A stretch of DNA of 64,000 nt from Naegleria gruberi (lineage: Eukaryota), in the NCBI GenBank assembly GCA_000004985.1, contig GG738845.1; one strand, 5' to 3'. Under the pieces are notes generated by a model. The model worked only from the letters and a program-made list of their open reading frames with translations. It searched no databases and had not been told where the DNA came from. The position numbers and the translations under genes were made by a program. Shown here piece by piece: positions 31,646 through 46,291 of this stretch (position 1 is the stretch's first letter; each line of letters opens with the position of its first letter).

Positions 31646-33240
31646 ATGGGTCTTCCCAGAAGTACAGTCACATCAGTGTTGAGTTTCATTCTCGGAACGA
31701 ATGATGCCTCCATGAATATGATTGCATCAAAGAAGCAACCACAATTGGAAGGTGGTGGTGATGGTGCAGGAGGAGCCACTATGGAAACTGTTATTTATAT
31801 TGATGGAAATTCATTAATTTATCACAAATTGCAAGATGTTATTCCTGTAGATGCTACTGCTTCAACATTGTTTGCTGAGAAGAGTGTTTTGAAAATTGTG
31901 GAGCAAGTTAAGGATTCTGTAATTGGTCAATTGAATCATATTTATTTGGAGAATAGACCATTTTCAAAGATTGTACTAGTTTTTGATGGTCCTTGCCCAT
32001 TGTAAGTATAGTTTCCTTGCTATCATAATTATGAATTTGGAAAAGTGCTAAAAATCAAGAACAAAGAAAACGTAGATTTGCCAATGTTTCCAGTTTGATG
32101 GCAAGTCCAGGAACTTTTTTCATGTTTAAAATTTGCCAGGAGATTTATAAATGGGCAGATGATGTGTTCTATTCACATGCCACAAAGGGAGTAGATATTA
32201 AGGTGGAATTTTCTGATTGTTTCGTACCTGGAGAGGGTGAAATTAAAATTTTAGAGGCTATAAGAAATAATCCAAATTGTAGACATGTTGTCTATACTAA
32301 GGATAGTGATTTTGTATTGCTCTTATTGACATCATGTGAGGAGAATATCATTCTTGTAAATGATTATCAGAAAATAGAAAAGATTATTCTGGTAAAGAGA
32401 GTTAGAGATCAGTTTGGATTATTTGATAATCAACAATATAAGGAAAAATTGAATAGCATACTGTTGGATATGGTATTTCTATCAATAAGTTTTGGAAATG
32501 ATTACTTGAAACCAATGTCACACGAACAAAAATTGTTAAACCTATTATTGAGATACAAGAAAAAGAAGCAAAAATATCCAGAAAAGTCTCTCGTTCATAT
32601 TGAGAAGAATACAATTGGACTAGATTTGGAGTTTTTCACCAAGATTTTAATTAAATCGAAGGATGTACAACCCTCCATGAAACGATCAGAGGAAGAAACT
32701 CTTTTAACGCTTAATTATTTGAAGAGTTTGTTGTGGTGTATTGGCACTTATGAGAGTGGAGTCTGTAGAAATTACTCACAATTCTCACATTGCACACCAC
32801 CAGTACTTTTGTCTCAAATGATTCAAGATATGAGAATTTTAGCGAAAAGGGATAAGATATTAATGTTGCCAACAATTGGTGATTCAAGCTTGTTACCAGT
32901 TACATTTTTAATGTCCATAATGCCTTTCACTGTATTTAGACAGGCGATACCAAAGAATATCATTTCATTAATTGAGTCGGATAGGTCTCTAATTGTAGAG
33001 TATCAGAATCACTCTTTAAAGCCATCAAGTTTCTTCCAATTGAAAACAATTGAACAAAAGCTACAGTCCTCCATCTCCAAGGAGAAAACAATCCAAGAGG
33101 ATGACCAGATTTGGTGTGAAAAATTACTCTATCCACCCAATACAGTGTTCAAAGTTTCGAAAAATAGAATTGAGGATATCTATCTCAGAACCAAAAAAAT
33201 AGCTAAAATCCTTAAAAAGAGCAAGTCAAATAGTAAATAA
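31646..33240 (+). CDS. XRN-family 5'-3' exonuclease-like protein (N-terminal catalytic region only), 2 exons, 516 aa
   Basis: Exons are 31646..32001 and 32046..33240, with a 44-nt intron (GTAAGT...AAAAG). Splicing restores VLVFDGPCP|FAKNQEQRKRRF (compare XRN FDGvAPrAKmnQQRsRRF). Also present: VIYIDGNSLIYH, FVPGEGEIKILEAIR and VVYTKDSDFVLLLL. The N-terminus is atypical (MGLPRSTVTS...). Confidence 0.7.
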
Positions 33241-33393
33241 TTTGAATGTGCAAAATTGTATTTATTTTGGTTGCGAACAGACTTGTCAGTGACTTTAGTT
33301 ATTTTACAAAGTTGTGCTTAGAAATTGGCTCGTGCCAAACCTAGATTAGTATTATTAATTGGTATCTCAAATAGTTCTTGAAATTGGAAATAT

Positions 33394-33993
33394 CTAGTCA
33401 TCCCACGACGACTGTTGTTTTGGAACATTCTCAAAATCTACTTCCTTATCATACTCATATCCCTCATCACCAGGTCTGATAACGTTGAATTTCTTGTCCA
33501 TCTCTGCCTTTACTCTCCTTAGGGTGACATCATCTAGCTTGTTCAAGTCTTTCTGTTGTGTTTCACTGTCTTCCTCATCCTCGTCAAAGTTATCGTCATC
33601 ACCTTGGTGATGGTACTTAGAGGTTGTATTATTGGTATTTGGGGAAGGTTTACTTTGGTTTTGTATAGATTGAGGCCTATTATCTGGAGGTAAAAATGAT
33701 TTTGTAGTAAAATCGACCAGTTTTCTGATCATTTTTGTAGTTTGATTTTCTGGAATGTGGGAGGCTAAATTCTTATGGTGCTTCATCAGGACATTAGACT
33801 TGATGTGTTCAACCAATTCATCTTCCTCTAATTCCGGATAGTTTTGTACAATGTAGTCTTCCAAGTAAATTTTTCGATGTCTGAGTTCCTTCTTTCCTTT
33901 CTTTGAAATTGTTGTATATTCAATTACGAGAGCACATAATTTCAATCTAATTCCAATTCTTAAAACATTTACATCATCGTTATTTGAGGGCAT
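33394..33993 (-). CDS. CEP19: CEP19-like centrosomal/basal-body protein, 199 aa
   Basis: The C-terminal block DLNKLDDVTLRRVKAEMDKKFNVIRPGDEGYEYDKEVDFENVPKQQSSWDD closely resembles the human CEP19 tail as I recall it ([20 protein letters not shown]...DPNFVYDIEVEF...SCGWD). The ATG is preceded by an A-tract. Confidence 0.6.
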   Translation of the reverse strand: MPSNNDDVNVLRIGIRLKLCALVIEYTTISKKGKKELRHRKIYLEDYIVQNYPELEEDELVEHIKSNVLMKHHKNLASHIPENQTTKMIRKLVDFTTKSFLPPDNRPQSIQNQSKPSPNTNNTTSKYHHQGDDDNFDEDEEDSETQQKDLNKLDDVTLRRVKAEMDKKFNVIRPGDEGYEYDKEVDFENVPKQQSSWDD

Positions 33994-34171
33994 TTTTTTT
34001 GTAGATTTTTGGAGGCAAAAATTTCGTTCAAATAAGCTTCAGTGCTACATTAAGGGAGCCTAAATATGGTAAAAACAATTCTTGTTTGTGGAAAAATTCT
34101 TCTTCTTGAAACCTATAACATGCAATATGTGTTGTTGATACATCCTACAAAGTAGTGAAACATGCTTGTTA

Positions 34172-34864
34172 TTATTCTCTCTCTGTATTATTCAATATGT
34201 ATTTTAAGGAGAGAGGATAGAAATTCTCAAAGAAATCATATTTTCTATAATCTAGATAATTGTGGGGCCACTTATCAATTCCAATCTTTTCCTTGATCTG
34301 ATAAAATTTTCTTTTAAGAGTTGATAAACTACATCCAAGAACATTGCATGCTTGCTGTTGAGTAAGATGCAAGAGACGTATCATCTCATCATCTGTAATA
34401 CTATCCACACTTCTTTTTCCTCTTTTTCCAATCATGGATGCATCGACTCGAATTATGGAAACATGTTGATCCTTTGAATAATTAAAATATGAATTCTTAT
34501 GAACATCTACTGGGCTTAACATTTGATTTTCCATGAATGTATAAACAACTTGTTCAAAGGGTTTTTCGCTAGTATTCGAACTATTGGAATCTCTATTCTT
34601 CATTTCGTACTTTCTTTTGATTTTTTTAGTTTTTTTCACTCCACCAATCCTGAATTTCGACATGTATTCGAATTGTGAGTTGGATGTTAAGCATGTGTCA
34701 TCAACATCCTCATGCACATGCATGCCATCCGTTGTCACATTAGCAGATGTGTTGTACGCAGATTCTGGTGATGGTAATCTCATACTATTGTTGTGTTGGT
34801 GTTGTTGTTGATTTCCCCTATTAATGTTTAAATAGATGTTATGGTTTGATGTTGTTTGATGCAT
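34172..34864 (-). CDS. RWP-RK domain DNA-binding protein, about 230 aa
   Basis: ITDDEMIRLLHLTQQQACNVLGCSLSTLKRKFYQIKEKIGIDKWPH matches the RWP-RK helix-turn-helix pattern (AA..LG.S.T.LKR.CR..GI.RWP), with KWPH in place of RWPxRK. The track start at 34867 is TTG; the first ATG is at 34864. Confidence 0.65.
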   Translation of the reverse strand: MHQTTSNHNIYLNINRGNQQQHQHNNSMRLPSPESAYNTSANVTTDGMHVHEDVDDTCLTSNSQFEYMSKFRIGGVKKTKKIKRKYEMKNRDSNSSNTSEKPFEQVVYTFMENQMLSPVDVHKNSYFNYSKDQHVSIIRVDASMIGKRGKRSVDSITDDEMIRLLHLTQQQACNVLGCSLSTLKRKFYQIKEKIGIDKWPHNYLDYRKYDFFENFYPLSLKYILNNTERE

Positions 34865-35857
34865 CAAGGCTGCGGAGGAGGATGTTATATTGGCTAGTGT
34901 TGAGATTTGTAGATGGATTCAAAAGCTCTGAGTACTCCATTGATGTGAAGTTGTGTTTTTTGTTGGTTTTTAATGATGGCAATGACTAGAAGAAAGAACA
35001 TAGATGAGCGAGTAAAGCTCGTCAGTGTAGATCGTTCGTTATTGGTTGGGAAGTTTTTTTGTTGTGTGTTGTTGGTGGTTCAAGGGTTGATTTCTTTGGA
35101 AAGAATAGACCTTTACTGGCCCAATTTATTATCGTTGCAACACTGGTTGAAGACAGAGAGTGTCCTTGACAATTCCATCGATTATCTTTTGGGTAATGGT
35201 GTTTTTGTGGTTTGAGATAATTTTGTTTAAGAAACTAACCAATCACATTATTCATTGTAAAATACACAACAAAAATTGAACCCAAATCATGTTTCAGATT
35301 TCTTATTATCAAGCAATGTGATATGACAGAACTATTTATTAATAATTTACATAAAATGTGATTCAAAATTTAAAACTCAAGAAAGATATTCTTCATAGTC
35401 TTCCTTCGAACTGTTAGAGAGGGATTAATTTAGAGTGATGAGGAAAAGCTATAAACGAAATAAACAATCAAGCTAATGATGGAGAGGTAAATAAAATCTA
35501 TTTAACAAGTCCGATTATTAATTATTAAAATATAATTGTTATTAAATTATCAATATCAACAACAACACATACTCATCAAAATAATTTCCCACGGTTCCAA
35601 CATGTAGTTAACACTCATAATTTGATAGTGTTTGAATTTTCTCTGAAGAAAGCCGATCATCTTGTTGCAATTTTTTATTTGATTTTAATGTCCTTGCTGC
35701 GAAAGGCAAACAGAAAAGTTATCGTTGAAAGTAATATCCTCTATCACCCTTCAACTAATTGGATGATAGAATTGTCGGTTCATGTAAGGAACGAGTAATA
35801 AGAAGAGCAAGATATAAGTAATTGGAGGAAACAACATTAAATAGATGATAAATATTT

Positions 35858-35866
35858 CCCGCCAAG
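35858..35866 (+). promoter_or_regulatory. E2F-type element TTTCCCGCCAAG, 37 nt upstream of ATG 35895
   Basis: Read directly: AATATTTCCCGCCAAGTGTT. Confidence 0.5.
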
Positions 35867-35894
35867 TGTTATTTACGAAAAAACATCAAAAAAA

Positions 35895-37295
35895 ATGAGC
35901 TCAAACCGAAGACCCAACAATAATAACACAGCACCTCCCCAACCCACAACAGCCGCTGCTAATCCAGCTGATGCTAAGAATTATGAAGAGTTGAAGGCGG
36001 AATTGGAGGAGACAAAGAGAAATAGAAATTACTACCAATTGGAAAGGGATAGAATAAATTCCTTCTGGGATATTACAAAGAAGGAAGTGGAAAATCTCAA
36101 GGGCGAGGTAAGGAACATGCAGAGGGAGATGGAAGAAAATGAAGAAAGACATCAGGTAGAATTAAAAGTGTACAAACAAAAAGTTAGACATCTTCTCTAT
36201 GAACAAAAGATCACCATTGATAGATTAAAAATTGAAAGTGAGAATGCTTTAAAGATCCAAGCTGATGAATTTAGGCAAAAATTAGCTCAATTGAAATCGG
36301 ATAAGAGAAAATTAAAAAGAGAACTCCACTCTATGGAAATAGCTTACCAAGAAGAAATCAAGGGGCTTAAAACGAATCAAGACAAAAACTTGACAAAACA
36401 AACTGAGACATTTGCAAGAAAACTTAAAGAGACCCAACTGAAATATGAAATGAAAATGAAAAAATTAAGAGAAGATTTAGAATTGAGAGGGAGAAAAGAA
36501 ACTGAAGAAATTGAAGAAAGAAAAAATACTCACATCAAACAATTAATGGAAAAACACAAACTTGCCTTTCAACAAATGAAGGATTACTATATAACTATTA
36601 CTAGAAATAACTTGGAATTAATCAAAACTCTGAAAGATGAAGCTGCACTGATGAAACAGGAAGAAGCAGACAATGAAAAACTCATGTTGGAAATTGCTCA
36701 AGACAATAAGAGATTGAGTGAACCTCTTGTTAAGGCTCTGGCAGAAGTTAAAAAGCTCAGAAATGAATTGGCCAACTACCAAAAGGACAAGCTATCTCTC
36801 AAAAATGCCAAGAGCAGGCTGGTCATGATGGAAGATCAATTGAAGAAATTGAAATGGGAACATGAGATTTTAGAACAAAGCCATAAGCAAGTGCACAGAG
36901 AACGTGACGATCTTTACGATAAGTTTGAAAAAACTATTCATGAAGTTCAACAAAAAACACTGTTCAAGAATCAAGTTCTTGAAACAAAGGTTTATGCACT
37001 TCAAGAAACTTTGGAAAAGAAGGATGCCCAAATTCATGAAATACTCAAAGCTTGTAACATAGATGAACACACAGCCGAAGAAATCTCTGAAGGTCTTGAT
37101 AATGTCATTGAAGAAAAGAACAACACGATACGAGAACTCAAATTTGAAATTGAAAAGATGAAGAAGAGTTATAATGATTTGATACGAGTAATTAATGCCA
37201 AGATGCAACAGTATGGAATTGAGGATGAGTTAGGTATTGAACCAATCGCTAACGTTGTTGATGAAGGTGTCCCAGGTAGAGTATGGGTAAAATAA
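35895..37295 (+). CDS. GAS8: Nexin-dynein regulatory complex subunit 4 (GAS8 / PF2 / trypanin), 466 aa
   Basis: RNYYQLERDRINSFWDITKKEVENLKGEVRNMQREMEENEERHQVELKVYKQKVRHLLYEQ is near-collinear with human GAS8 ([24 protein letters not shown]...[28 protein letters not shown]). It continues through ...NKRLSEPL.. and WEHEILEQ..ERDDLYDKF..IHEVQQKT.FKN. Confidence 0.9.
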   Translation: MSSNRRPNNNNTAPPQPTTAAANPADAKNYEELKAELEETKRNRNYYQLERDRINSFWDITKKEVENLKGEVRNMQREMEENEERHQVELKVYKQKVRHLLYEQKITIDRLKIESENALKIQADEFRQKLAQLKSDKRKLKRELHSMEIAYQEEIKGLKTNQDKNLTKQTETFARKLKETQLKYEMKMKKLREDLELRGRKETEEIEERKNTHIKQLMEKHKLAFQQMKDYYITITRNNLELIKTLKDEAALMKQEEADNEKLMLEIAQDNKRLSEPLVKALAEVKKLRNELANYQKDKLSLKNAKSRLVMMEDQLKKLKWEHEILEQSHKQVHRERDDLYDKFEKTIHEVQQKTLFKNQVLETKVYALQETLEKKDAQIHEILKACNIDEHTAEEISEGLDNVIEEKNNTIRELKFEIEKMKKSYNDLIRVINAKMQQYGIEDELGIEPIANVVDEGVPGRVWVK

Positions 37296-37402
37296 GTAGC
37301 ACTAAATTCAACAAACACTAGGTTTTTTATCTTGTAAATAAAGTTAACAATTGTTATTGATTGACTATTTGCAGAATAATTGTTTTTCTATTATTAAAAA
37401 AA

Positions 37403-38209
37403 TGACAATACATCATACTTCTGATGGTATCAGAGAGGGTTATCAATTTAAAGATCCCTATATTAAAAATCTATTTAATATGATTGCAAAACAATCACCT
37501 TGTTTTCCAATTGAACCTGATCATGTTCAAGTTATCGAAACACCATCACAATTTTATGATGATTTATTGGAGGGAATTAAACATGCAAAAGACAGAGTTG
37601 TATTGAGTAGTTTATATCTAGGAACAGGAGAACAAGAGAAGAAAATTATTCAAGTCTAAGGACTCTTCTATAGCTCTCACTAGCGCCTATTTTAACTTTA
37701 CAGATGAATATATGGAAAGAGTATTGACTACACCATGTACAGACATTTCAATACTCACTGCCTCACCGGCTGCAAATGGATTTTTTACAGCAACTGGCAT
37801 TTCAAAGAATATTCCAATGGCATATGATACTATGGAGCAATCATTTTTTTCTGCAGTTGAGAGAAATCAAAAATTGGGATCCATCAAATTATTCGAATAC
37901 AATAGAGAGAAGTGGACTTTCCATGCCAAAGGATTGTGGCTCTATTCTCCAAACAAAACTATTAATGCACCATTTCTAACCATGATTGGAAGTAGTAATT
38001 TTGGACAACGATCAACAGAAAGAGATGTCGAATCTCAAATAATTTTAATGACTGAGGATGAAAAGTTAATGCAAACATTAGAGAAGGAGAGACAAGGTCT
38101 CGCCAATTACTCCAAACTTGTAACAAGAGCTACTTTTGCCTCTCCTGAGAGAAAGATTGGCAAAGTTTCACAGTTTTTAGTTTCCAAGTTTTTCCATAAA
38201 TTCCTTTAA
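37403..38209 (+). pseudogene. PGS1: PGS1-like (PLD-type phosphatidylglycerophosphate synthase) locus, apparently disrupted: N-terminal and C-terminal pieces only, in different frames
   Basis: Piece 1 (frame 1, stop at 37657-37659) reads ...IETPSQFYDDLLEGIKHAKDRVVLSSLYLGTGEQEKKII. Piece 2 (frame 2, open from 37622) reads ...IALTSAYFNFTDEYMERVL...ILTASPAANGFF...WTFHAKGLWLY...MIGSSNFGQRSTERDVESQ (second HKD). About 200 aa containing the first HKD (GLQHMKIY..SGANLSNDYFTNRQDRY in yeast Pgs1) have no counterpart. I found no GT..AG pair that joins the frames. Confidence 0.5.
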
Positions 38210-38212
38210 TTT

Positions 38213-41200
38213 TTATTCCAAATCTTTGAAATACTTTTCCATCTCGGCACTAGCTTTGAGATTCTTTGGATTTAATGGATAAGGATACAAATCGCCCTTA
38301 AGAGTCTTTCTCAAGTATTTATAACCTTGCTTTCCATCAGCTTTAGAAATGATTACTTTTGATAAAGTACCTTCAGGTAAGCACATTGAAGTAATTACGT
38401 GACCTCCTCTCTTGAGTGGAGTATCAGTAATACGAGGCCATCTAAATGATTGAAGAGAAAATTCTCTTGCATAACCTCTCAATTCCTTTCTAAGTGCAAT
38501 TTCCTTTTCCACAACAGAATCTGGAAGTTGCTCTCTTATTTGTTTCTTTCTCATTTCTTCTTCTTCTTCTTTTTCTACTTGCTCTCCATATTTAAATCCA
38601 TCAAGTCCATGTCTCTTGAAAGCAATGAATGAGTAATTTTCATTTTCATATTGTTTTTTAGCTTGCTTGGTCAACTTTTGGAATTCTTCGCGCTCCACTC
38701 TTTGTGCAAAGTGACACCATTTTGGAGTGCCGGCCATTGGACAAACTGAATCATGAGGGCATGGGGCCAATATTGTTGGCTTATCATTAATGTTAATGTA
38801 TTTTTGTGTGAGTACTGTTGATCTAGCCTCTCTGATAAAATCAAATCCAACAGGTGTACCTGGTTCAATAATTATCAAAACACCAGATGTTAGTTTCCAC
38901 AGTGCCTTTACAATTCTTTCTCTTTCTTGAGAGTTAGACAATTCATTCATTACAAATGAGGCAACAACAAGGTCATATTGCTTACTAGAATGTTCATTCA
39001 AAAAACGTCTCCATGTAATGTGTGGTTTGTTGTTCATATATTCGAATAATCTGGAAGCAACGTCCATCATTGCAGTAGACGGTTCAACAGCCATCACTTC
39101 TTTCACACTTCCTCCAAAAGCTTCATGAGCTGCCCAAATGGTAGTACCTGGTCCAGTACCAAAATCAAGCATTGTCTTTGGTTCAAAGTCAGGCATTCTC
39201 ATTACAGCCTCTGAAAATACTCTATATGATGTACCATAGATGGCAGGAAGTCTGTGGGCAATATATGCAGCAGATTCCAACTCCTTATAAATAATTTGAG
39301 GATTATAAGTTCTATTAAATTCCTCTTCACTATCCTTTTTCATCTTTTCAATATCAATAGGTCTCTTCTTTTTTTTTGAGGTTTCCTTGTAACTTCTCAA
39401 ATGTTTGAGAACTTCCAATTGTTCCCTGAATAATTCATCTTCAGGACTTTCATCCTTATTCAATTTCTTTTCTTCATCAGATCTGCTGAAAACTTTTGGA
39501 TTCTTATCCAAGCCATTAGTTCTCAATCTAAAGGCAGCACTTAGAATTTGAGCAGTTCTTTGAATCAAATTCTTTGGATATTCAGATACAATCTCAGATA
39601 CACCCTCAACAAGTTCTGGAGGAAGACTAATAGAACCAATACTCATATTGGCTATTTCCTTTCTAAGCTTATCCTCGTTTTCTTTTGTAGATTTCTTCAA
39701 GTATGGGTGTATATCCTCTGAAAACATTGCATATTCTGATTTGGTTTCATATTCAGATAATAGTAAATTCTTTTCTTCCAACGATTGGAAAATTTGGTTT
39801 GGGTCATCATCCCCCAAGTATTCATCCAAAAGATTCGAAATTGGTGTCTCATTCTCTTCATTTTCCAATTCGTCTTGCAGTTTATCATAAGCTGTAGTTT
39901 TTTCTATTTTTTTAGGTTGAGTTTTTTCCTTCTTCTTTTTAATGATTTCATCATCTTTAAGAATGGTATTAAGATCTGAAATATCATATCCATATTCTAA
40001 AAAGTAGTTTTTAGCATCTATCAATTTCTTCTCCAAATCTCTCTCATCAAAATTTGAGCTTTCCAAATCTACCTCATCCTTGGTACTTTCATCAACTAGT
40101 AAATCTCTTAGAGGTATTCTTCCCTTTGATCCTGCAACTATAAGTGGTTTCGTTTGGTCCTTATTGGTGGCATTTTTAACCTTTTCCACAACTTTCTTTG
40201 TATTGGTTCCAATTGGGTAGAGGATTAATATTTTTCTACCATGATTGTTTTGTATTACTGGTGAGTATCCCTTTAATTCCCATTGTTTGTTAAATTCAAC
40301 TGGATTTGACATGGCATTACTATATTGTTCATCTGTTAAATTCAAGATGGTTGTGGAGAATGTTGGACTAGATTCATTTTGATCCACTTCTGGTTTTTCT
40401 TTACTTGAGTCCATTGTTTCTTTGTGAGCTAATTCTTCATAACTAGATGGTTTCTTATTGACGGTGGAGAGTCTTTGGGATAATTTTTGGAGATCGGTCT
40501 TTTTGTGAGGTTTTGAGGAGAGCTTATCACTCTCAACAATTTCAATATTCTTTGGCAATTGTTTCTTTGGTCTTTCGACATCCTCTTCCTCTTCCTCAGT
40601 AATACTATTTACAAATTGTTTGAATGAAATATCTTCTTTTCCTCTCTTCTCCTCCTCTTCCTCTGGTACAGAATTCACATAGTCTTCGTATGCTTTTTTG
40701 AGTTCTGCCTTCTTTTTCTTTTTTTCTTCAATTTCCTCTGGTGTACTGTCCATGTCAGGGAGAAGAATATTTTCCAAATTGTATCTGACATCATGTTTAA
40801 TACCCCATTCAACAACTTTCGAGATGTCATCCTCAGTGTTTACCTTATTTTGTAAGAGGTTTGCAAATTTCTTATCTTGTAATTTAGTTGTTGTGTATTC
40901 TGCAACAGGCATTGAGCTTGTATCTATTTGATCTCGTTTAGGTTTGTTAACAAGAATTTTGAATGATGATTCATCTTTCTTTCTAGATTCCTCCTTTTTC
41001 TTTTCTAGTTCCTTTGCTTCCTTCAACCTGGATTCTTTCATCTCTTTCCTCAATTTTTGAACAAGTGCTACAACATCCTCTTCCTCCATATTATTTTTTC
41101 CATCAGTTACCTTTTGATTTGTGATAGTAGTGGTATTTGGTTGTTGTGGGTTGGATAATTTTGTGGTACTTTTTGGAATCTCTGAAGATACCTTCTTTTT

Positions 41201-41452
41201 CGTTTTGTTGCTGGCTTGTTCTATTTTCTTATTGTTGGATTTAGTTGTGTTCATTGGTTTGTTGTTACTATTCTTTTTAATTCCCGATGATTTTTCCATG
41301 GATGAAAGTAGAGAATCAATAGAAGATTTCTTCTCTAGAAAAAGTGTTGTAGAGAATAACCTATTGTTATTTCCAATCAGAGGCAATTTTCTAGAAAGAG
41401 GCAATCCCGACAAGGAAGCTACTACTGATGACTTTCCAACGAATCTCTTCAT
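38213..41452 (-). CDS. RSM22: Rsm22/METTL17-like mitochondrial methyltransferase with a long K/E-rich N-terminal extension, 1079 aa
   Basis: The C-terminal half reads MLDFGTGPGTTIWAAHEAFGG..VMAVEPSTAMMDVA...YDLVVASFVMNEL...GVLIIIEPGTPVGFDFIREAR...ILAPCPHDSVCPM...WCHFAQRVER. This is a SAM-binding GxGxG motif plus the Rsm22 Cys cluster. Confidence 0.75.
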   Translation of the reverse strand: MKRFVGKSSVVASLSGLPLSRKLPLIGNNNRLFSTTLFLEKKSSIDSLLSSMEKSSGIKKNSNNKPMNTTKSNNKKIEQASNKTKKKVSSEIPKSTTKLSNPQQPNTTTITNQKVTDGKNNMEEEDVVALVQKLRKEMKESRLKEAKELEKKKEESRKKDESSFKILVNKPKRDQIDTSSMPVAEYTTTKLQDKKFANLLQNKVNTEDDISKVVEWGIKHDVRYNLENILLPDMDSTPEEIEEKKKKKAELKKAYEDYVNSVPEEEEEKRGKEDISFKQFVNSITEEEEEDVERPKKQLPKNIEIVESDKLSSKPHKKTDLQKLSQRLSTVNKKPSSYEELAHKETMDSSKEKPEVDQNESSPTFSTTILNLTDEQYSNAMSNPVEFNKQWELKGYSPVIQNNHGRKILILYPIGTNTKKVVEKVKNATNKDQTKPLIVAGSKGRIPLRDLLVDESTKDEVDLESSNFDERDLEKKLIDAKNYFLEYGYDISDLNTILKDDEIIKKKKEKTQPKKIEKTTAYDKLQDELENEENETPISNLLDEYLGDDDPNQIFQSLEEKNLLLSEYETKSEYAMFSEDIHPYLKKSTKENEDKLRKEIANMSIGSISLPPELVEGVSEIVSEYPKNLIQRTAQILSAAFRLRTNGLDKNPKVFSRSDEEKKLNKDESPEDELFREQLEVLKHLRSYKETSKKKKRPIDIEKMKKDSEEEFNRTYNPQIIYKELESAAYIAHRLPAIYGTSYRVFSEAVMRMPDFEPKTMLDFGTGPGTTIWAAHEAFGGSVKEVMAVEPSTAMMDVASRLFEYMNNKPHITWRRFLNEHSSKQYDLVVASFVMNELSNSQERERIVKALWKLTSGVLIIIEPGTPVGFDFIREARSTVLTQKYININDKPTILAPCPHDSVCPMAGTPKWCHFAQRVEREEFQKLTKQAKKQYENENYSFIAFKRHGLDGFKYGEQVEKEEEEEMRKKQIREQLPDSVVEKEIALRKELRGYAREFSLQSFRWPRITDTPLKRGGHVITSMCLPEGTLSKVIISKADGKQGYKYLRKTLKGDLYPYPLNPKNLKASAEMEKYFKDLE

Positions 41453-41582
41453 TTTTTTTGATGTGAATATTGACTTGAAGAAATTATTGTAGAAAGTATC
41501 ACTCTAGGCCTTTATTGTCTTTGTCACATCTACTGCAAGGTGGAGCAGCTTGATAAAATACACAACACTGTTAATTTACAAT

Positions 41583-43325
41583 TTAAAGATCTCCATCGTT
41601 TGGATCTTTTTGATTCTTATATTTGTGGAATAATCTCAATGTTTCCAGTGTTCTGGCAAATCTTTCTTTGGGATCTGAAATATGTGGACCATCAGATTCA
41701 TTCTCTCTTTCTGGAGATTTAGATGGTGAAGGTTCAACCTCTTTCTTTGGAGACCAACTCGTGTTTGGAATGTCAGTGTCCAATTCATACTGCTTAATAA
41801 TGGCAAAAATTTGGTCATCTGTCAAACTAAAGTTACTGTCAGAAGTACCTGCACTAATATTGTCATCATCTCCAAAGTAAGAATCATCATCCTTATGGAT
41901 AATACCTTGGCCTCTTTTTTGGTAAAAATTATGAAGGAAAGTTTCTCTGAACTTCTCCTTCTTTTCGAGACCTTCTAGACCTTGCTTATATAGCCTATCA
42001 CCGAAAGGTTCAGATCTTTTCAAGTTGGAAGCCTTACTTGTGATATTAGGGTTGTGTTGGGCTTTCTCTTGCTTGATGTAAGACTCTATATATTTTCGTT
42101 TCTTATGGTTTTTGATGAACTCCCATTCGTAATTCCTCTCAAAAACGTCGTTTGAGGTCTGAAATGTGCTTGGTGTCTTTTTTGTTTGTTCTGCTATCTT
42201 TCTGGATCTACTACTTAAATTTGGTCTGAATGTACATCCATCAACTTCCTTTTGTTTAACTTGATCCTTTAGGCTTTTGAGGCGTTCTTTCTTTTCTTCT
42301 CTCCAATTAAGAAGAACTGTCACATCTCTATTCATCTTTTGAGACTTTTTAGTTATTTCAGGTTTGAATTTTAGCTCATTCTCCTCAATTTTGGAAAATT
42401 CTTGTTTCTTCTTTTCAATATGTTTCATCTTTTCTACTACAAAGGTGGATACTCTGTCGTCAAGTGTACTTCCTGGAGAGATCAATTGTCGTGATCTTTC
42501 ATTGATAACTGGTTGAAATGTATTATTCTTACAATAGTCCTCCTCTCTTTCATTAACAATTTTCTCTATTTTCTTTGCCTTTTTTTCGTATGGTCTATTT
42601 AATCTTTGCGCCAACTCGTCCCACTTTTCTTGACCAACTTCCTTCTTTGGTTTCTCTTCATTGATTTCACTGTTTATCTTATTCAATATGTAAATGGTTT
42701 CGTTTGGATCTTCTGTTTGGTTTAAATGCTCTCTAAAGGCGGATATAGATCTTTGCATTCTTGACTTAATGCTTGGAGCGACTGACTCCCATACGGGGCC
42801 TAACACAGCATCCTTCTTAGGTGAATCTTCCTTGTTTTTAGAATGACTCTCTAGATAACTTTTAAAATCTACAACACTACTGTTCATATTTTGCAATCCT
42901 ATTTTCGATAAATTATGTGAAATTCTAGAGTTACTAATCTCCAATGCCTTGCTATTATTTAAATCTGTATCTCCGAGAAGCTTTACCAATTGATTCACTG
43001 CTAATTCAAATTCATGATCACCAACATCAACTTGATCCGAATTTTCTTCCATTGTTGAAAGTTTCTGAACAAATTCATCATCAGACATGTCTTGGTAAAG
43101 TCCTAGCTGTTGAAATAACCTAGATGTATTCTTAGGGGAGTCTCTTCTCTCTGATAAAGGATTTCCTGGGCTTAATTGTATTGTTAAATTATTCTTATTA
43201 ATAGGAGAGGGTGGGCTTAAGGCCTTATTATTTGTAAGCTCTCCATCAGACTCATAATTCCTAACTTTTGATAAGGCGTTGTTACGAACGCTTAGTTTGA
43301 ACAAATCGGTCTGATTATGACTCAT
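41583..43325 (-). CDS. Hypothetical protein with four F/H-x-P-x-(I/L)-x3-S-x2-(L/M/I) mini-repeats, about 580 aa
   Basis: The track start at 43382 is TTG; the first in-frame ATG is 43325 (MSHNQTD). The repeats are TFQPVINERSRQL, KFKPEITKKSQKM, TFRPNLSSRSRKI and HNPNITSKASNL. I can name no family confidently. Confidence 0.5.
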   Translation of the reverse strand: MSHNQTDLFKLSVRNNALSKVRNYESDGELTNNKALSPPSPINKNNLTIQLSPGNPLSERRDSPKNTSRLFQQLGLYQDMSDDEFVQKLSTMEENSDQVDVGDHEFELAVNQLVKLLGDTDLNNSKALEISNSRISHNLSKIGLQNMNSSVVDFKSYLESHSKNKEDSPKKDAVLGPVWESVAPSIKSRMQRSISAFREHLNQTEDPNETIYILNKINSEINEEKPKKEVGQEKWDELAQRLNRPYEKKAKKIEKIVNEREEDYCKNNTFQPVINERSRQLISPGSTLDDRVSTFVVEKMKHIEKKKQEFSKIEENELKFKPEITKKSQKMNRDVTVLLNWREEKKERLKSLKDQVKQKEVDGCTFRPNLSSRSRKIAEQTKKTPSTFQTSNDVFERNYEWEFIKNHKKRKYIESYIKQEKAQHNPNITSKASNLKRSEPFGDRLYKQGLEGLEKKEKFRETFLHNFYQKRGQGIIHKDDDSYFGDDDNISAGTSDSNFSLTDDQIFAIIKQYELDTDIPNTSWSPKKEVEPSPSKSPERENESDGPHISDPKERFARTLETLRLFHKYKNQKDPNDGDL

Positions 43326-43557
43326 TAGCGTAACGGTATTTTTTTTAAGGTAATACTGTGCAATGTTGTAACTTGGTTGCAAGATTAAATATTTGGGATA
43401 AAATGGTCAAGTCTTCAAATACTCCCCTATGCATCCTTTTGGTGATTTTCAACTTTTTTTGACCAGGTAATGTTCTGTTAACAATAAACATATGATGTTA
43501 TTATGTTTCAAATAATAAATAATATTATCCAATGGAACAAATAACATTAAATAAAAA

Positions 43558-44340
43558 ATGGACAGAAAATCATCATCAATGATGTTCGATCCAATCATCA
43601 CAACAGACGTCGATGACTTGGTGGAGGAAGAAGAAAACGATCAATTATTAGCAACAAAAACATGGAGAGATGAACTCTTCTTACGTTTTAGACCAATAGT
43701 TAATGAGGATACAGCATTGGAGTATTTTTGCAATAGATCAAACCCTTTCTATTCGAAAAAGTCTGTCAATGAAACACTCCGAATGCAACAAACAGGAGGT
43801 ATCATTGATAGGAATGCTCTCCTAGAATCAACAGAGGGTATTCGATATTCTGTTGACTCTAAACGATCAAAACCTCCTTCCCTCTTCATCATTAAAAAAG
43901 AGAAGGTGGAAAAGAAGGATAGGAATGCTCCAAAATTATTGAATTTGTACTATATAGCTGCGGAAGCTGGTGTTGTTTATCAGTCACCTTCTGTTTATGA
44001 CGTGATACAAGCAAGATCTTTTAATTCTCTTTCTCTGTTGAATCAAACTTTCAAGGAAATACAACCTCATGTTGAATACACAACAAATGATGTGACTGTT
44101 CTCTCTAGTCCATTAGCAAAAAAGGATGGAAACAAATCGGAGGAAGAGGATCGTTTTGTTGTTGCCAACTTACCTCCTTATTCTGTAGAGATGCAAAACC
44201 ATGTTTCCCGACTTATCGACCTGTTAGATATTGACACAAACACATTGATACAAAACAAACAAAACAAGAATGCCTTCCAAATTCAACCATCAATAGATCC
44301 AAATTATCAACAACCTGCCACAATAAAGGAAGAGCATTGA
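43558..44340 (+). CDS. MED6: Mediator complex subunit 6, 260 aa
   Basis: TWRDELFLRFRPIVNEDTALEYFCNRSNPFYSKKSVNETLRMQ...LFIIKKEKV......LNLYYI matches the MED6 domain pattern. Confidence 0.75.
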   Translation: MDRKSSSMMFDPIITTDVDDLVEEEENDQLLATKTWRDELFLRFRPIVNEDTALEYFCNRSNPFYSKKSVNETLRMQQTGGIIDRNALLESTEGIRYSVDSKRSKPPSLFIIKKEKVEKKDRNAPKLLNLYYIAAEAGVVYQSPSVYDVIQARSFNSLSLLNQTFKEIQPHVEYTTNDVTVLSSPLAKKDGNKSEEEDRFVVANLPPYSVEMQNHVSRLIDLLDIDTNTLIQNKQNKNAFQIQPSIDPNYQQPATIKEEH

Positions 44341-44385
44341 GAATTGAATTATTAATTATTTGAAATTTGAATAATACTTTAAAAA

Positions 44386-44868
44386 ATGTCACCACAAGAG
44401 GAAAGTGTGGAGGATAATTCTGATGATAATAGTGTTGATGATGATAATGCAAAGTCTGACACAACACACAACAGCAATGACACTATTGGAGGTGATGATA
44501 CAACTACCAATCAAGAGGATATCCATAGAAGAAATGATCGCTTGATGGCTAAACAATTCCGAAAGTCAGCCATCGAAACTATTGACGAGAAGAGAGAATT
44601 ATTTATTGAATATAAGAAGGAACAAAAAGGAAGAATGATTTCTTTTCTCACATGTATTTTAACAGATCCTCTTACCCCAATATTTAATCAATTCTTTAAC
44701 GAATATTTGACTCCGATCAACTTTTCAATCTTTGAGGGGATTCAAGCTGAACAAGTTAAGAAGCTCATAGTATCCCAAGAACAAATTGAAATGTTGCAAC
44801 ATGCCTTTCAGAAAGGGGATGAAGAAAAGAACATTTTTCAAATTCAAACAAAACCTAAAATGGAATGA
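44386..44868 (+). CDS. Hypothetical acidic protein, 160 aa
   Basis: Clean ORF with an A-tract before the ATG. No recognisable domain. Confidence 0.4.
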   Translation: MSPQEESVEDNSDDNSVDDDNAKSDTTHNSNDTIGGDDTTTNQEDIHRRNDRLMAKQFRKSAIETIDEKRELFIEYKKEQKGRMISFLTCILTDPLTPIFNQFFNEYLTPINFSIFEGIQAEQVKKLIVSQEQIEMLQHAFQKGDEEKNIFQIQTKPKME

Positions 44869-45080
44869 TACAATTTTTCCCCATGGAAAAATAAGAGTTT
44901 TGTCAAATGTTGATTATATGAGATATTTAACAAGGGTATTATTTAAATCTCAAAAGGAAGAGATTGAAATCAATCATATTGTATGGACATTGAGTTTCAA
45001 TAGTAGTTACTGAAGAGTAGAGTACAAGAAAAAACCTCAAACAATCTTGAGAAGAATTATAAATGTAATAATTTTAAAAT

Positions 45081-45090
45081 CCCGCCAAAA
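45081..45090 (+). promoter_or_regulatory. E2F-type element CCCGCCAAAA, 47 nt upstream of ATG 45128
   Basis: Read directly: TTAAAATCCCGCCAAAATTATTAC. Confidence 0.5.
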
Positions 45091-45127
45091 TTATTACATT
45101 TTGCACAAACTTTGACAAAAAAAACAT

Positions 45128-46291
45128 ATGGCCATCGCTACCTCTCCAAAGTCTTCAGTGCTAAAAGCCACAAACACAAGCACGGGAGCAACCTCAACTC
45201 CACCAACATCACATACATCCCCGAAGAGAAATAATAACAACAATAAGGATGGACAACAAGTGTTGAGGAAGATTTATAGGTGCGACTCTGAAATTAAACG
45301 TATGAAGGAACAAGATGAAAAGCAACTACGAATAGAAAGATTAAAACAAGTCAGACAAATGGCTATGGATATTGCAAAAAACAAGACAAAACAATATGCA
45401 CAAGCAAAGGAAAAGGAAAATCAAAGTAATTTGAAGGTAATCAAAAAAGCATGGGAAGAAAGAAAGGAAGAAGAGATTGATCAACTCCAAACAGAGTTGG
45501 ATTATGCTAGAAAAAAAGCTGGTGAAGCCAATAGGAATGCACTCCAATTTAATAAGGAATTCCATCTTCAACAACAGAAGAAACATGAGCAAAATAAGGC
45601 AAACGCTTTAATAGCTCAACAGAGGTTTGATAAATGTGTCAGTATTGTCAAACAAAGACAGGTCGAGAATCAAAAGAAAAAGGATAATCTCTTTGAAAGA
45701 ATTGAAAAATCAAAGAACATGGAATATCCAGAAATTGAGCCTGTCCACAATGGATATGAAAAGTTGTTTGCAGTTCCATCTCGTGACCTGAATGATGTAG
45801 TGGCTGGTTGGAATCCTACCAAAAAGAGAGAAGACCAGGGAATTTACGAGACGACGTTTAATCACCAAATGGTTTTAGAACCAACCTCACCAGAAAAGCA
45901 AACAGCTATTAAAGTTAATCAACATGTGGTCAAACATTTTGATAAACAGGCTGGTGTTGATGTAAATAATGAACAAGCCGAATTGACCTTAGAGGAAAAA
46001 AAGAGGACAGCTTTGCAAAGAGCATTTTCAGAAAAGAGATTTGCAAGAAAAGCCGCAGAAAAGGTGCGAAATGAAAAATTTAATGAGATTATTGTTGAAG
46101 AATTAGAACGAGTATCCAAAATTGATAGACAACTTAAAGTTGAGTCCATACAGAATCCTTCTAGAAATACTCTGGCAGACAATCAATACAAGAAGAAAAA
46201 GCAAATGGAACTGGAAAGAAAATTTGAAGAGCTCTTCAGAAATAGGGTCCATTTTGCAGATAAACCAGAAGAAAAGAGCAGTTACTTTTAA
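45128..46291 (+). CDS. Coiled-coil K/E/Q-rich protein, 387 aa (family not recognised; possibly ciliary or centrosomal)
   Basis: Clean ORF with heptad-like charged sequence throughout. The only hint of a flagellar link is the shared upstream motif. Confidence 0.5.
   Translation: MAIATSPKSSVLKATNTSTGATSTPPTSHTSPKRNNNNNKDGQQVLRKIYRCDSEIKRMKEQDEKQLRIERLKQVRQMAMDIAKNKTKQYAQAKEKENQSNLKVIKKAWEERKEEEIDQLQTELDYARKKAGEANRNALQFNKEFHLQQQKKHEQNKANALIAQQRFDKCVSIVKQRQVENQKKKDNLFERIEKSKNMEYPEIEPVHNGYEKLFAVPSRDLNDVVAGWNPTKKREDQGIYETTFNHQMVLEPTSPEKQTAIKVNQHVVKHFDKQAGVDVNNEQAELTLEEKKRTALQRAFSEKRFARKAAEKVRNEKFNEIIVEELERVSKIDRQLKVESIQNPSRNTLADNQYKKKKQMELERKFEELFRNRVHFADKPEEKSSYF

What the first reader, a model, noticed from the sequence alone, without database searches (positions are those of the whole stretch)
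37351..38209. PGS1-like gene lacks its entire first HKD half and has a frame break between the two remaining pieces
The N-terminal piece (...ETPSQFYDDLLEGIKHAKDRVVLSSLYLGTGEQE...) stops at 37657-37659. The C-terminal piece (ALTSAYFNFT...WTFHAKGLW...GSSNFGQRS) is in the +1 frame, which is open only from 37622. By comparison with yeast Pgs1 or human PGS1, about 200 residues are missing, including the first catalytic HKD motif. The two pieces overlap within about 40 nt, and I found no usable GT..AG pair that links them.

PGP synthase is normally essential for the cardiolipin pathway. Four explanations are possible:
- a decaying paralogue
- an assembly collapse or indel
- an unconventional join
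- a genuinely minimal single-HKD enzyme
Basis: partly seen in the sequence, partly recalled or inferred. Interest (0 to 1): 0.5.

Follow-up and report, generated by a model that had tools for sequence, protein, structure and literature searches.

The report
Broken PGS1 gene in Naegleria reference
The window holds the Naegleria gruberi gene for the first enzyme of the cardiolipin pathway (PGS1) with about 640 or more bases cut out of its middle and the reading frame shifted; a nearly identical environmental Naegleria contig and two sister Naegleria genomes carry the normal sequence, so this is an ordinary recent deletion or an assembly drop-out, not a new minimal enzyme.

Summary
The window is Naegleria gruberi NEG-M. 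A PGS1-like reading frame starts at ATG 37402 and hits TAA at 37657-37659. The rest of the gene, with the second PLD domain, continues in the +1 frame to 38209.

Compared with N. lovaniensis PGS1 (477 aa, intronless), the window keeps residues 11-81 and 294-477. It lacks residues 82-293, which include the first HKD motif.

The decisive result is an independent ENA metagenome contig, L001. It differs from the window by only 4 substitutions in 5.7 kb. It matches the window exactly up to base 37654 and then continues in frame as ...KKIIQ-ELEKALERE. That is the normal PGS1 continuation, identical in N. lovaniensis. The lesion is therefore a clean internal deletion of 3n+2 bases (at least 635 nt) at 37654|37655.

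Both retained pieces show strong purifying selection and no rate acceleration, so the break is young or artefactual. No repeat flanks the junction.

I could not tell a real, probably heterozygous, null allele from an assembly drop-out. I reject a decaying paralogue, an unconventional join and a minimal single-HKD enzyme. Interest is low.

The parts
37402..37654 (+). Retained 5' part of the PGS1 coding sequence. It holds codons 1-84 (MTIHH...GTGEQEKKIIQ) plus the first base (G) of codon 85. This is the first strand and helix of PLD domain 1 (RVVLSSLYLGTG at 37594-37629).
   Evidence: Translation. 66% identical to N. lovaniensis PGS1 residues 11-80. 100% identical in DNA to the independent contig L001 up to base 37654.
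37654..37655 (+). Deletion junction. To its left the sequence is shared with the intact contig L001. To its right the gene resumes at a full codon (TCT), 212 codons further on. The missing stretch is 3n+2 nt, at least 635 nt, and longer if the intact N. gruberi gene has an intron there.
   Evidence: L001 diverges from the window exactly after 37654 and continues as ELEKALERE, which matches N. lovaniensis residues 82-90.
37657..37659 (+). Premature TAA in the original (N-terminal) frame, created by the frameshift one codon after the junction.
37619..37621 (+). TAG in the +1 frame. It is the upstream limit of the frame that carries the C-terminal piece. The frame-2 reading of 37622-37654 (EQENKRRKLFK) is only the alternative frame of real N-terminal coding sequence.
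   Evidence: The DNA up to 37654 is identical to L001, where it is read in frame 1.
37655..38209 (+). Retained 3' part of the PGS1 coding sequence (184 codons plus TAA). This is the whole second PLD domain, with HAKGLW at 37922-37939 and GSSNFGQRS at 37988-38014. The longest ATG-initiated ORF inside it starts at 37712.
   Evidence: Pfam PLDc_2, E = 4.2e-6, 27.1 bits against a cut-off of 27. 80% identical to N. lovaniensis residues 295-477 and 75% identical to P0165. pN = 0.136 against pS = 0.80. Coordinates.

Best explanation
This locus is the Naegleria gruberi orthologue of the mitochondrial PLD-type phosphatidylglycerophosphate synthase PGS1.

In the reference sequence an internal segment has been lost between bases 37654 and 37655. 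The segment runs from the second base of codon 85 to the end of the codon equivalent to N. lovaniensis residue 293. That is at least 635 nt, and its length has the form 3n+2.

The loss removes the rest of PLD domain 1, including the first HKD motif (the catalytic His/Lys/Asp), and the inter-domain linker. It also shifts the frame, so translation from ATG 37402 stops at 37657 after 85 residues. As written, the gene cannot make an active enzyme, because the PLD-superfamily active site needs one HKD motif from each half.

I take the lesion to be a real, very recent deletion allele in the clonally propagated lab strain NEG-M, sheltered by an intact allele at the same locus. Naegleria is described as mainly a heterozygous diploid.

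Shown: the junction, the missing residues, the intact continuation in a near-identical genome, the intact orthologues, and the lack of decay in the retained pieces.

Inferred: that the deletion exists in the cells rather than only in the assembly, and that an intact allele supplies the function.
For: - The window is N. gruberi NEG-M. The GAS8 ORF equals EFC50469/XP_002683213 on a 1.56-Mb scaffold.
- Contig L001 (ENA ERZ929261) has the same gene order. It differs from the window by 4 substitutions in 5.7 kb, is identical up to 37654, and then reads ELEKALERE in frame. N. lovaniensis has DELEKALERE at that point.
- N. lovaniensis PGS1 (477 aa) and a second Naegleria-like protein (483 aa) are uninterrupted two-domain ORFs. 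The N. lovaniensis protein aligns end to end with solved PssA structures.
- The retained pieces are under strong constraint: pN/pS is 0.136/0.80 for the C piece and 0.204/0.77 for the N piece. The N. gruberi branch of the C piece (0.117) is as short as the N. lovaniensis branch (0.117). Hence the break is young.
- No direct repeat lies at or around the junction that could drive an assembly collapse, and the window contains no N.
- The other window-versus-L001 differences look like selection-filtered natural polymorphisms. They are a 27-nt in-frame indel inside an ORF and 1-2-nt indels only in intergenic DNA. This suggests both assemblies are accurate at the base level.
- PMC9928731 describes Naegleria as mainly a heterozygous diploid with plastic ploidy.
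Against: - No reads are available, so a real allele cannot be told apart from an assembly artefact.
- L001 ends 99 nt past the junction. Only its first 37 nt there are recognisably PGS1. The right-hand breakpoint was never seen in intact N. gruberi DNA.
- L001 comes from a close relative or another strain, not demonstrably from NEG-M. It proves the intact form exists in the species, not in this clone.
- An out-of-frame deletion in a normally essential single-copy gene is also what a rare assembly or cloning error would look like.
Confidence: 0.5

Rival explanations
1. Assembly or cloning drop-out. The NEG-M genome carries only an intact two-HKD PGS1 here. The draft Sanger assembly lost about 0.64 kb or more at this point, for example through a deleted clone in a thinly covered spot or a spurious contig merge. 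The biology would be entirely ordinary.
For: - The lesion sits in a normally essential gene and is out of frame.
- Both retained pieces are pristine.
- A genome that differs by only 0.07% in substitutions has the intact continuation.
- None of 20 plausible ORF or spliced models of this locus is in the protein collection. This is compatible with annotators having no clean model here.
Against: - No repeat at the junction could cause a collapse.
- There is no gap or N in the window.
- Elsewhere the window and L001 differ only in ways expected of real polymorphism, which speaks for good consensus quality.
Confidence: 0.35
2. Decaying paralogue. This is a redundant, dying copy, and an intact PGS1 sits elsewhere in the N. 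gruberi genome.
For: - The gene is broken.
- Its neighbours differ from those of N. lovaniensis PGS1.
- A published survey scores N. gruberi as Pgs_pld-positive (PMC5573378).
Against: - A near-identical genome carries the undeleted sequence at this same locus, next to the same GAS8 neighbour.
- The retained pieces are 80% and 66% identical to the N. lovaniensis orthologue, with no extra stops and no rate acceleration.
- Synteny is broken generally between these species, for GAS8 as well, so differing neighbours say nothing here.
Confidence: 0.05
3. Functional product from the sequence as written. Either a cryptic intron (for example 37610..37673, 64 nt) or a +1 ribosomal frameshift within 37622-37656 joins the pieces into a roughly 247-268-aa single-HKD protein, or the 165-aa ORF from ATG 37712 is used. 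The product would act as a homodimer like Nuc or Zucchini.
For: - In-frame GT..AG pairs exist, and the acceptor at 37673 has a pyrimidine tract.
- The spliced product still scores as one PLDc_2 domain at 26.7 bits.
- Single-HKD enzymes that dimerise are known in the superfamily (own knowledge).
Against: - The would-be intron is conserved coding sequence (SSLYLGTGEQEKKIIQ), read as exon in L001 and in the orthologues.
- The surviving motif is the degenerate second one, HAKGLWLY, with no Asp.
- The Pfam score is at or below the cut-off of 27.
- The orthologues in sister species are two-domain proteins.
- A fusion would carry two copies of the first strand and no coherent single domain (alignment).
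Confidence: 0.03

Closest known systems
Naegleria lovaniensis PGS1 orthologue (C9374_007670, 477 aa; P0157, locus L008:8001-9434)
   Same: - Same protein family and same genus.
- The window's N piece is 66% identical to its residues 11-80. The C piece is 80% identical to its residues 295-477, including HAKGLWLYSPNK, MIGSSNFG and the C-terminal SKFFHKFL.
   Different: - The N. lovaniensis gene is one uninterrupted 1434-nt ORF with both PLD domains and the first HKD (HMKLYMFD, 162-169).
- The window lacks the equivalent of residues 82-293 and is frameshifted.
- The genomic neighbours differ.
[quoted passage not shown]
   Same: The best named database hits of both pieces are annotated PGS1 proteins of animals, fungi, oomycetes and protists. 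They are 440-500 aa long and 35-50% identical.
   Different: Those enzymes have two PLD halves that together form one active site. Only the second half and the first roughly 70 residues of the first half are encoded here.
Bacterial PLD-type phosphatidylserine synthase PssA (solved structures 3HSI, 8YR5)
   Same: This is the closest solved fold. The intact Naegleria orthologue aligns with it end to end, residues 28-451 against 18-424.
   Different: The window's pieces align only to PssA residues 20-70 and 267-444. The substrate also differs: serine rather than glycerol-3-phosphate.
Single-HKD PLD-superfamily enzymes that act as homodimers (Nuc, BfiI, Zucchini/MitoPLD)
   Different: - Those are complete, uninterrupted single-domain genes with a full HxKxxxxD motif, and their orthologues are single-domain too (own knowledge).
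- Here the ORF is broken and the motif lacks the Asp.
- The orthologues here are two-domain.

Membership tests
PLD-type PGP synthase (PGS1/Pgs1p) | Significant sequence homology to PGS1 orthologues | tested here: met
   C piece E = 1.6e-106 and N piece E = 5.8e-34 against N. lovaniensis PGS1. Named PGS1 proteins dominate the hits.
PLD-type PGP synthase (PGS1/Pgs1p) | Two tandem PLD-like domains in one polypeptide | tested here: not met
   Pfam finds one PLDc_2 stretch, on the C piece only. The orthologues have two stretches. tblastn finds no first-domain core anywhere in the window.
PLD-type PGP synthase (PGS1/Pgs1p) | First HKD motif (HxKxxxxD; N. lovaniensis H162-K164-D169) | tested here: not met
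   The equivalent of residues 82-293 is absent. PF00614 hits the orthologues at 159-181 and 166-188 but hits nothing in the window.
PLD-type PGP synthase (PGS1/Pgs1p) | Second motif (HxK ... GSxN) in the C-terminal half | tested here: met
   HAKGLW at 37922-37939 and GSSNFGQRS at 37988-38014, conserved with the orthologues.
PLD-type PGP synthase (PGS1/Pgs1p) | One continuous reading frame (after splicing) | tested here: not met
   TAA at 37657-37659 in frame 1, and the remainder is in frame 2. The in-frame GT..AG pairs only remove conserved coding sequence.
PLD-type PGP synthase (PGS1/Pgs1p) | PGP synthase activity and mitochondrial location | not testable with these tools
   Needs biochemistry or cell biology.
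Single-HKD homodimeric PLD-superfamily enzymes (Nuc/BfiI/Zucchini type) | A complete single PLD domain in an uninterrupted ORF | tested here: not met
   The only ATG-initiated ORF of the C piece (37712-38209) starts after the first strand ALTSAYFNF (37673-37699). PLDc_2 scores 27.1 and 26.7 bits against a cut-off of 27.
Single-HKD homodimeric PLD-superfamily enzymes (Nuc/BfiI/Zucchini type) | Full HxKxxxxD motif | tested here: not met
   The motif reads HAKGLWLY, with Tyr where the Asp would be.
Old (decayed) pseudogene | Several disabling mutations and relaxed or accelerated substitution | tested here: not met
   There is a single lesion. The N. gruberi branch of the C piece (0.117) equals the N. 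lovaniensis branch (0.117). pN is far below pS. The N piece and its upstream region are 100% identical to L001.

The most novel reading that the evidence does not exclude
NEG-M is truly homozygous for this deletion and still has working mitochondria. It would then make phosphatidylglycerol and cardiolipin by a route that does not need PLD-type PGS1, for example a CDP-alcohol-phosphatidyltransferase-type PgsA or lipid scavenging. Alternatively it expresses a chimeric single-HKD protein through the cryptic 64-nt GT..AG interval 37610-37673. My evidence does not exclude this because no NEG-M reads, transcripts or whole-genome search were available.
Probability: 0.05. Interest if true: 0.6.

Novelty: already known. 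Interest (0 to 1): 0.12.

Why it matters
The main value is quality control.

- The N. gruberi NEG-M reference, which is used in comparative surveys of cardiolipin and phospholipid pathways, carries a defective PGS1 at this locus. Automated annotation will give either no model or a bogus single-domain model.
- Surveys that score N. gruberi for Pgs_pld (for example PMC5573378) should rest on the intact allele.
- If the deletion is a real heterozygous allele, it is a small example of null alleles sheltered in a clonally propagated diploid amoeba.
- It does not bear on any open question about PLD-family catalysis.

Tried and rejected
- **Linking introns.** I enumerated all GT..AG pairs that put the two frames in register. 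Many exist, but all delete conserved exon sequence and none restores the domain. The tempting 20-nt GTCTAAG...TATAG (37654-37673) has the wrong length (20, which is 2 mod 3) and is far too short.
- **Missing half elsewhere in the window.** tblastn with four full-length homologues found nothing.
- **Public gene model for the locus.** I made exact look-ups of 20 candidate products: the N ORF, the C ORF and 16 spliced variants, plus two forms of the product that the collection's gene caller predicted on L001 at this locus. Only one form of that L001 product (121 aa) is on record.
- **Intact N. gruberi copy in public data.**
  - Exact look-ups of the Rsm22 neighbour and of the C-terminal ORF failed.
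  - The Med6 neighbour gave contigs of the same ENA run, but they stop at about window position 41485, short of PGS1.
  - A peptide-pattern scan and a DNA-pattern scan of JGI metagenome contigs found nothing.
- **Tool caveat.** The single-sequence homologue searches missed the closest relatives, including the query's own parent protein. Absence from those lists means little. The profile search is what found the Naegleria orthologues.
- **Synteny.** N. fowleri and N. lovaniensis have different neighbours next to GAS8 and next to PGS1, so synteny gave no help.
- **Repeat-mediated collapse.** No repeats lie at the junction.
- **Literature.** I found nothing on this gene in Naegleria beyond presence/absence tables, and nothing on project PRJEB11402.

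Full report
**What is in the sequence.** The window is AT-rich (33% G+C), gene-dense and free of N. An ORF starts at ATG 37402, 106 nt after the stop of a GAS8/DRC4-type gene (35895-37295; Pfam GAS). It encodes MTIHH...ETPSQFYDDLLEGIKHAKDRVVLSSLYLGTGEQEKKIIQV and stops at TAA 37657-37659. The +1 frame is closed by TAG at 37619-37621. It is then open to TAA 38207-38209 and encodes SKDSSIALTSAYFNFTDEY...WTFHAKGLW...GSSNFGQRS...KFL. Pfam finds a PLD-like domain only on this second piece, at 27.1 bits against a cut-off of 27. Against the solved PLD-type phosphatidylserine synthase 3HSI, the N piece aligns to residues 20-70 and the C piece to residues 267-444.

**Which organism.** Exact look-ups show that five ORFs of the window are annotated proteins of Naegleria gruberi. 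The GAS8 ORF, for example, is EFC50469/XP_002683213 on a 1.56-Mb scaffold. The window is a stretch of the NEG-M reference genome.

**What the gene should look like.** A profile search with the N-terminal halves of PGS1 homologues found two close relatives. One is the N. lovaniensis orthologue P0157 (477 aa). The other is a second Naegleria-like protein from a JGI metagenome, P0165 (483 aa). Both are single uninterrupted ORFs in their genomes. Each gives two PLDc_2 stretches and a PLD active-site hit on the first HKD, which is HMKLYMFD at 162-169 in N. lovaniensis. The N. lovaniensis protein aligns end to end with PssA structures.
- The window's N piece corresponds to N. lovaniensis residues 11-81 (66% identity).
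- The C piece corresponds to residues 294-477 (80% identity).
- Residues 82-293 are missing. That is 212 codons covering the core of PLD domain 1, the first HKD and the linker.
- No other place in the window encodes them.

**The decisive comparison.** Looking up the GAS8 protein returned an independent contig, L001. It is 5,731 bp long and comes from ENA metagenome assembly ERZ929261, run ERR1078381. It has the same gene order as the window: XRN_N, CEP19, RWP-RK, GAS8 and then the start of PGS1. It differs from the window by 4 substitutions in 5.7 kb plus a few indels. It is identical to the window through base 37654 and different from base 37655 onward. Past that point L001 stays in frame 1 and reads ...GTGEQEKKIIQ-ELEKALERE. 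N. lovaniensis reads ...GTGTQEQKIVD-ELEKALERE-KDLQVVILLDYLRGTR at the same place. A tblastx of the L001 tail hits exactly that part of the N. lovaniensis gene.

On the other side of the junction the window resumes with a complete codon. TCT AAG GAC = SKD aligns with VEN in N. lovaniensis and CKN in P0165, followed by SSIALTSAYFNF against SSLAFTSAYFNF. The lesion is therefore a clean internal deletion between 37654 and 37655. It removes all but the first base of codon 85 and everything up to the codon equivalent to residue 293. Its length is of the form 3n+2 and is at least 635 nt. This is why the frame shifts by +1 and a stop follows one codon later. The frame-2 'coding' upstream of 37655 (EQENKRRKLFK) is only the other frame of genuine N-terminal coding sequence.

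**Age of the lesion.** Both retained pieces have been kept as coding sequence. Against N. lovaniensis, pN is 0.136 for the C piece and 0.204 for the N piece, while pS is saturated at about 0.8. In a three-taxon comparison the N. gruberi branch of the C piece (0.117) equals the N. lovaniensis branch (0.117). Its share of the tree (0.27) is similar to the share for GAS8 (0.20). The 5' piece and its upstream region are base-for-base identical to L001. There is one lesion and no further decay, so the break is very recent or does not exist in the cells.

**Splicing and other 'joins'.** Contrary to the finding, GT..AG pairs that put the two frames in register do exist. Examples are 37610..37673 (64 nt), 37607..37673 (67 nt) and 37600..37660 (61 nt). 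All of them would excise SSLYLGTGEQEKKIIQ. That sequence is conserved with the orthologues and is plainly exon in L001. None can bring back 212 codons that are not there. The 20-nt GTCTAAG...TATAG at the junction has the wrong length for the required shift. A spliced or frameshifted product would contain the first strand of domain 1, then the first strand of domain 2, and only the degenerate second motif (HAKGLWLY, no Asp). It scores at or below the Pfam threshold. In the PLD superfamily the active site is built from two HKD motifs (established knowledge). I therefore regard the sequence as written as a null.

**Real deletion or assembly artefact?** I could not decide this.
- Against a repeat-driven collapse: there is no repeat at or around the junction and no gap in the window.
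- For real polymorphism: the other differences between the window and L001 look filtered by selection. They are a 27-nt in-frame indel inside the CEP19-like ORF, a 131-nt versus 2-nt replacement just upstream of the RWP-RK gene's start codon, and 1-2-nt indels only in intergenic DNA. This suggests both sequences are accurate.
- Naegleria is described as mainly a heterozygous diploid with plastic ploidy (PMC9928731). A null allele could therefore persist in a clonal lab strain and be picked by the assembler.
- For an artefact: an out-of-frame loss inside a normally essential gene whose remains are pristine is also what a rare cloning or assembly error looks like.
- My split is about 0.5 real allele, 0.35 artefact, and the rest for the minor rivals.

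**Limits.** L001 ends 99 nt past the junction, and only the first 37 nt there are recognisably PGS1. The remainder begins with GTACGT directly after ...GAA AGG GAA A. This would fit a phase-1 intron in the Lys/Asn codon that follows ERE in the orthologues, but it could also be a contig-end artefact. The right-hand breakpoint was never seen in intact N. gruberi DNA, so the exact deleted length and any microhomology are unknown. The other contigs from the same run that I could reach stop at about window position 41485. Two scans of JGI metagenome contigs found nothing. I could not search the rest of the N. gruberi genome for a second copy or for a PgsA-type enzyme. A published table scores N. 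gruberi positive for Pgs_pld and Cls_pld and negative for Cls_cap (PMC5573378), but it gives no accession.

**Comparison with known things, and verdict.** The locus is homologous to PLD-type PGS1 and is the orthologue of N. lovaniensis C9374_007670. As written, it fails three defining features of the family: two PLD domains, the first HKD, and one continuous frame. It also fails the features of single-HKD homodimeric enzymes and of an old pseudogene. It is an ordinary gene carrying one recent internal deletion, or a reference-assembly defect. That is useful as an annotation warning for a much-used reference genome, but it is not a new kind of enzyme or of gene expression. Interest is 0.12.

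Noticed in passing
L001:5670-5731 (beyond window 37654; not present in the window): After ...ELEKALERE the near-identical contig stops resembling PGS1, and the divergent part begins with GTACGT right after 'GAA A'. This fits a phase-1 intron in N. gruberi PGS1, whereas the N. lovaniensis gene is intronless. It could also be a contig-end artefact. The reverse strand of this tail is an open frame (KIQYDVQIRTEETIITLPVSANVLS...) with no match in the window or in the other loci.
   Followed up: partly
window 34945-35075: The window has 131 nt (GTGAAGTTG...GTTGTTGG) where contig L001 has only 'AT'. The site lies just upstream of the start codon of the minus-strand RWP-RK-like gene. It is a structural difference between two genomes that differ by only about 0.07% in substitutions.
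   Followed up: partly
window 33591 (inside minus-strand ORF 33394-33993, CEP19-like): L001 carries an extra 27 nt (ATCGTCAAAATCTTCCTCGTCAATATC) that the window lacks. This is an in-frame 9-codon indel in a coding region. Correspondingly, L001's product is 208 aa against 199 aa in the window.
   Followed up: no
window 38207-38215; L008:9434-9439: PGS1 and the convergent Rsm22-like gene (38213-41452, minus strand, 1079 aa) end only 3 nt apart. In N. lovaniensis PGS1 is also followed after 4 nt by a convergent gene, but there it is a protein kinase. The 3' ends are extremely tightly packed.
   Followed up: no
window 31900-45200 against L002-L004 and L008: Gene order is not conserved between N. 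gruberi and N. fowleri or N. lovaniensis around either GAS8 or PGS1. In the two sister species GAS8 is followed by an L51_S25_CI-B8 gene, an RRM protein and ribosomal S8. In N. gruberi it is followed by PGS1, Rsm22 and Med6.
   Followed up: partly
window 38213-41452 (minus strand): The Rsm22-type mitochondrial methyltransferase domain occupies only residues 726-1057 of a 1079-aa ORF. The N-terminal roughly 700 residues are Lys/Glu/Ser/Asn-rich low-complexity sequence with no Pfam hit. The exact protein is not in the public collection, although its neighbours are.
   Followed up: no
tools: Single-sequence homologue searches failed to return the closest relatives: N. lovaniensis P0157, the L001 product P0061, and even the query's own parent protein. 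A profile search did find the Naegleria orthologues. Absence from the single-sequence lists should not be read as absence from the database.
   Followed up: yes
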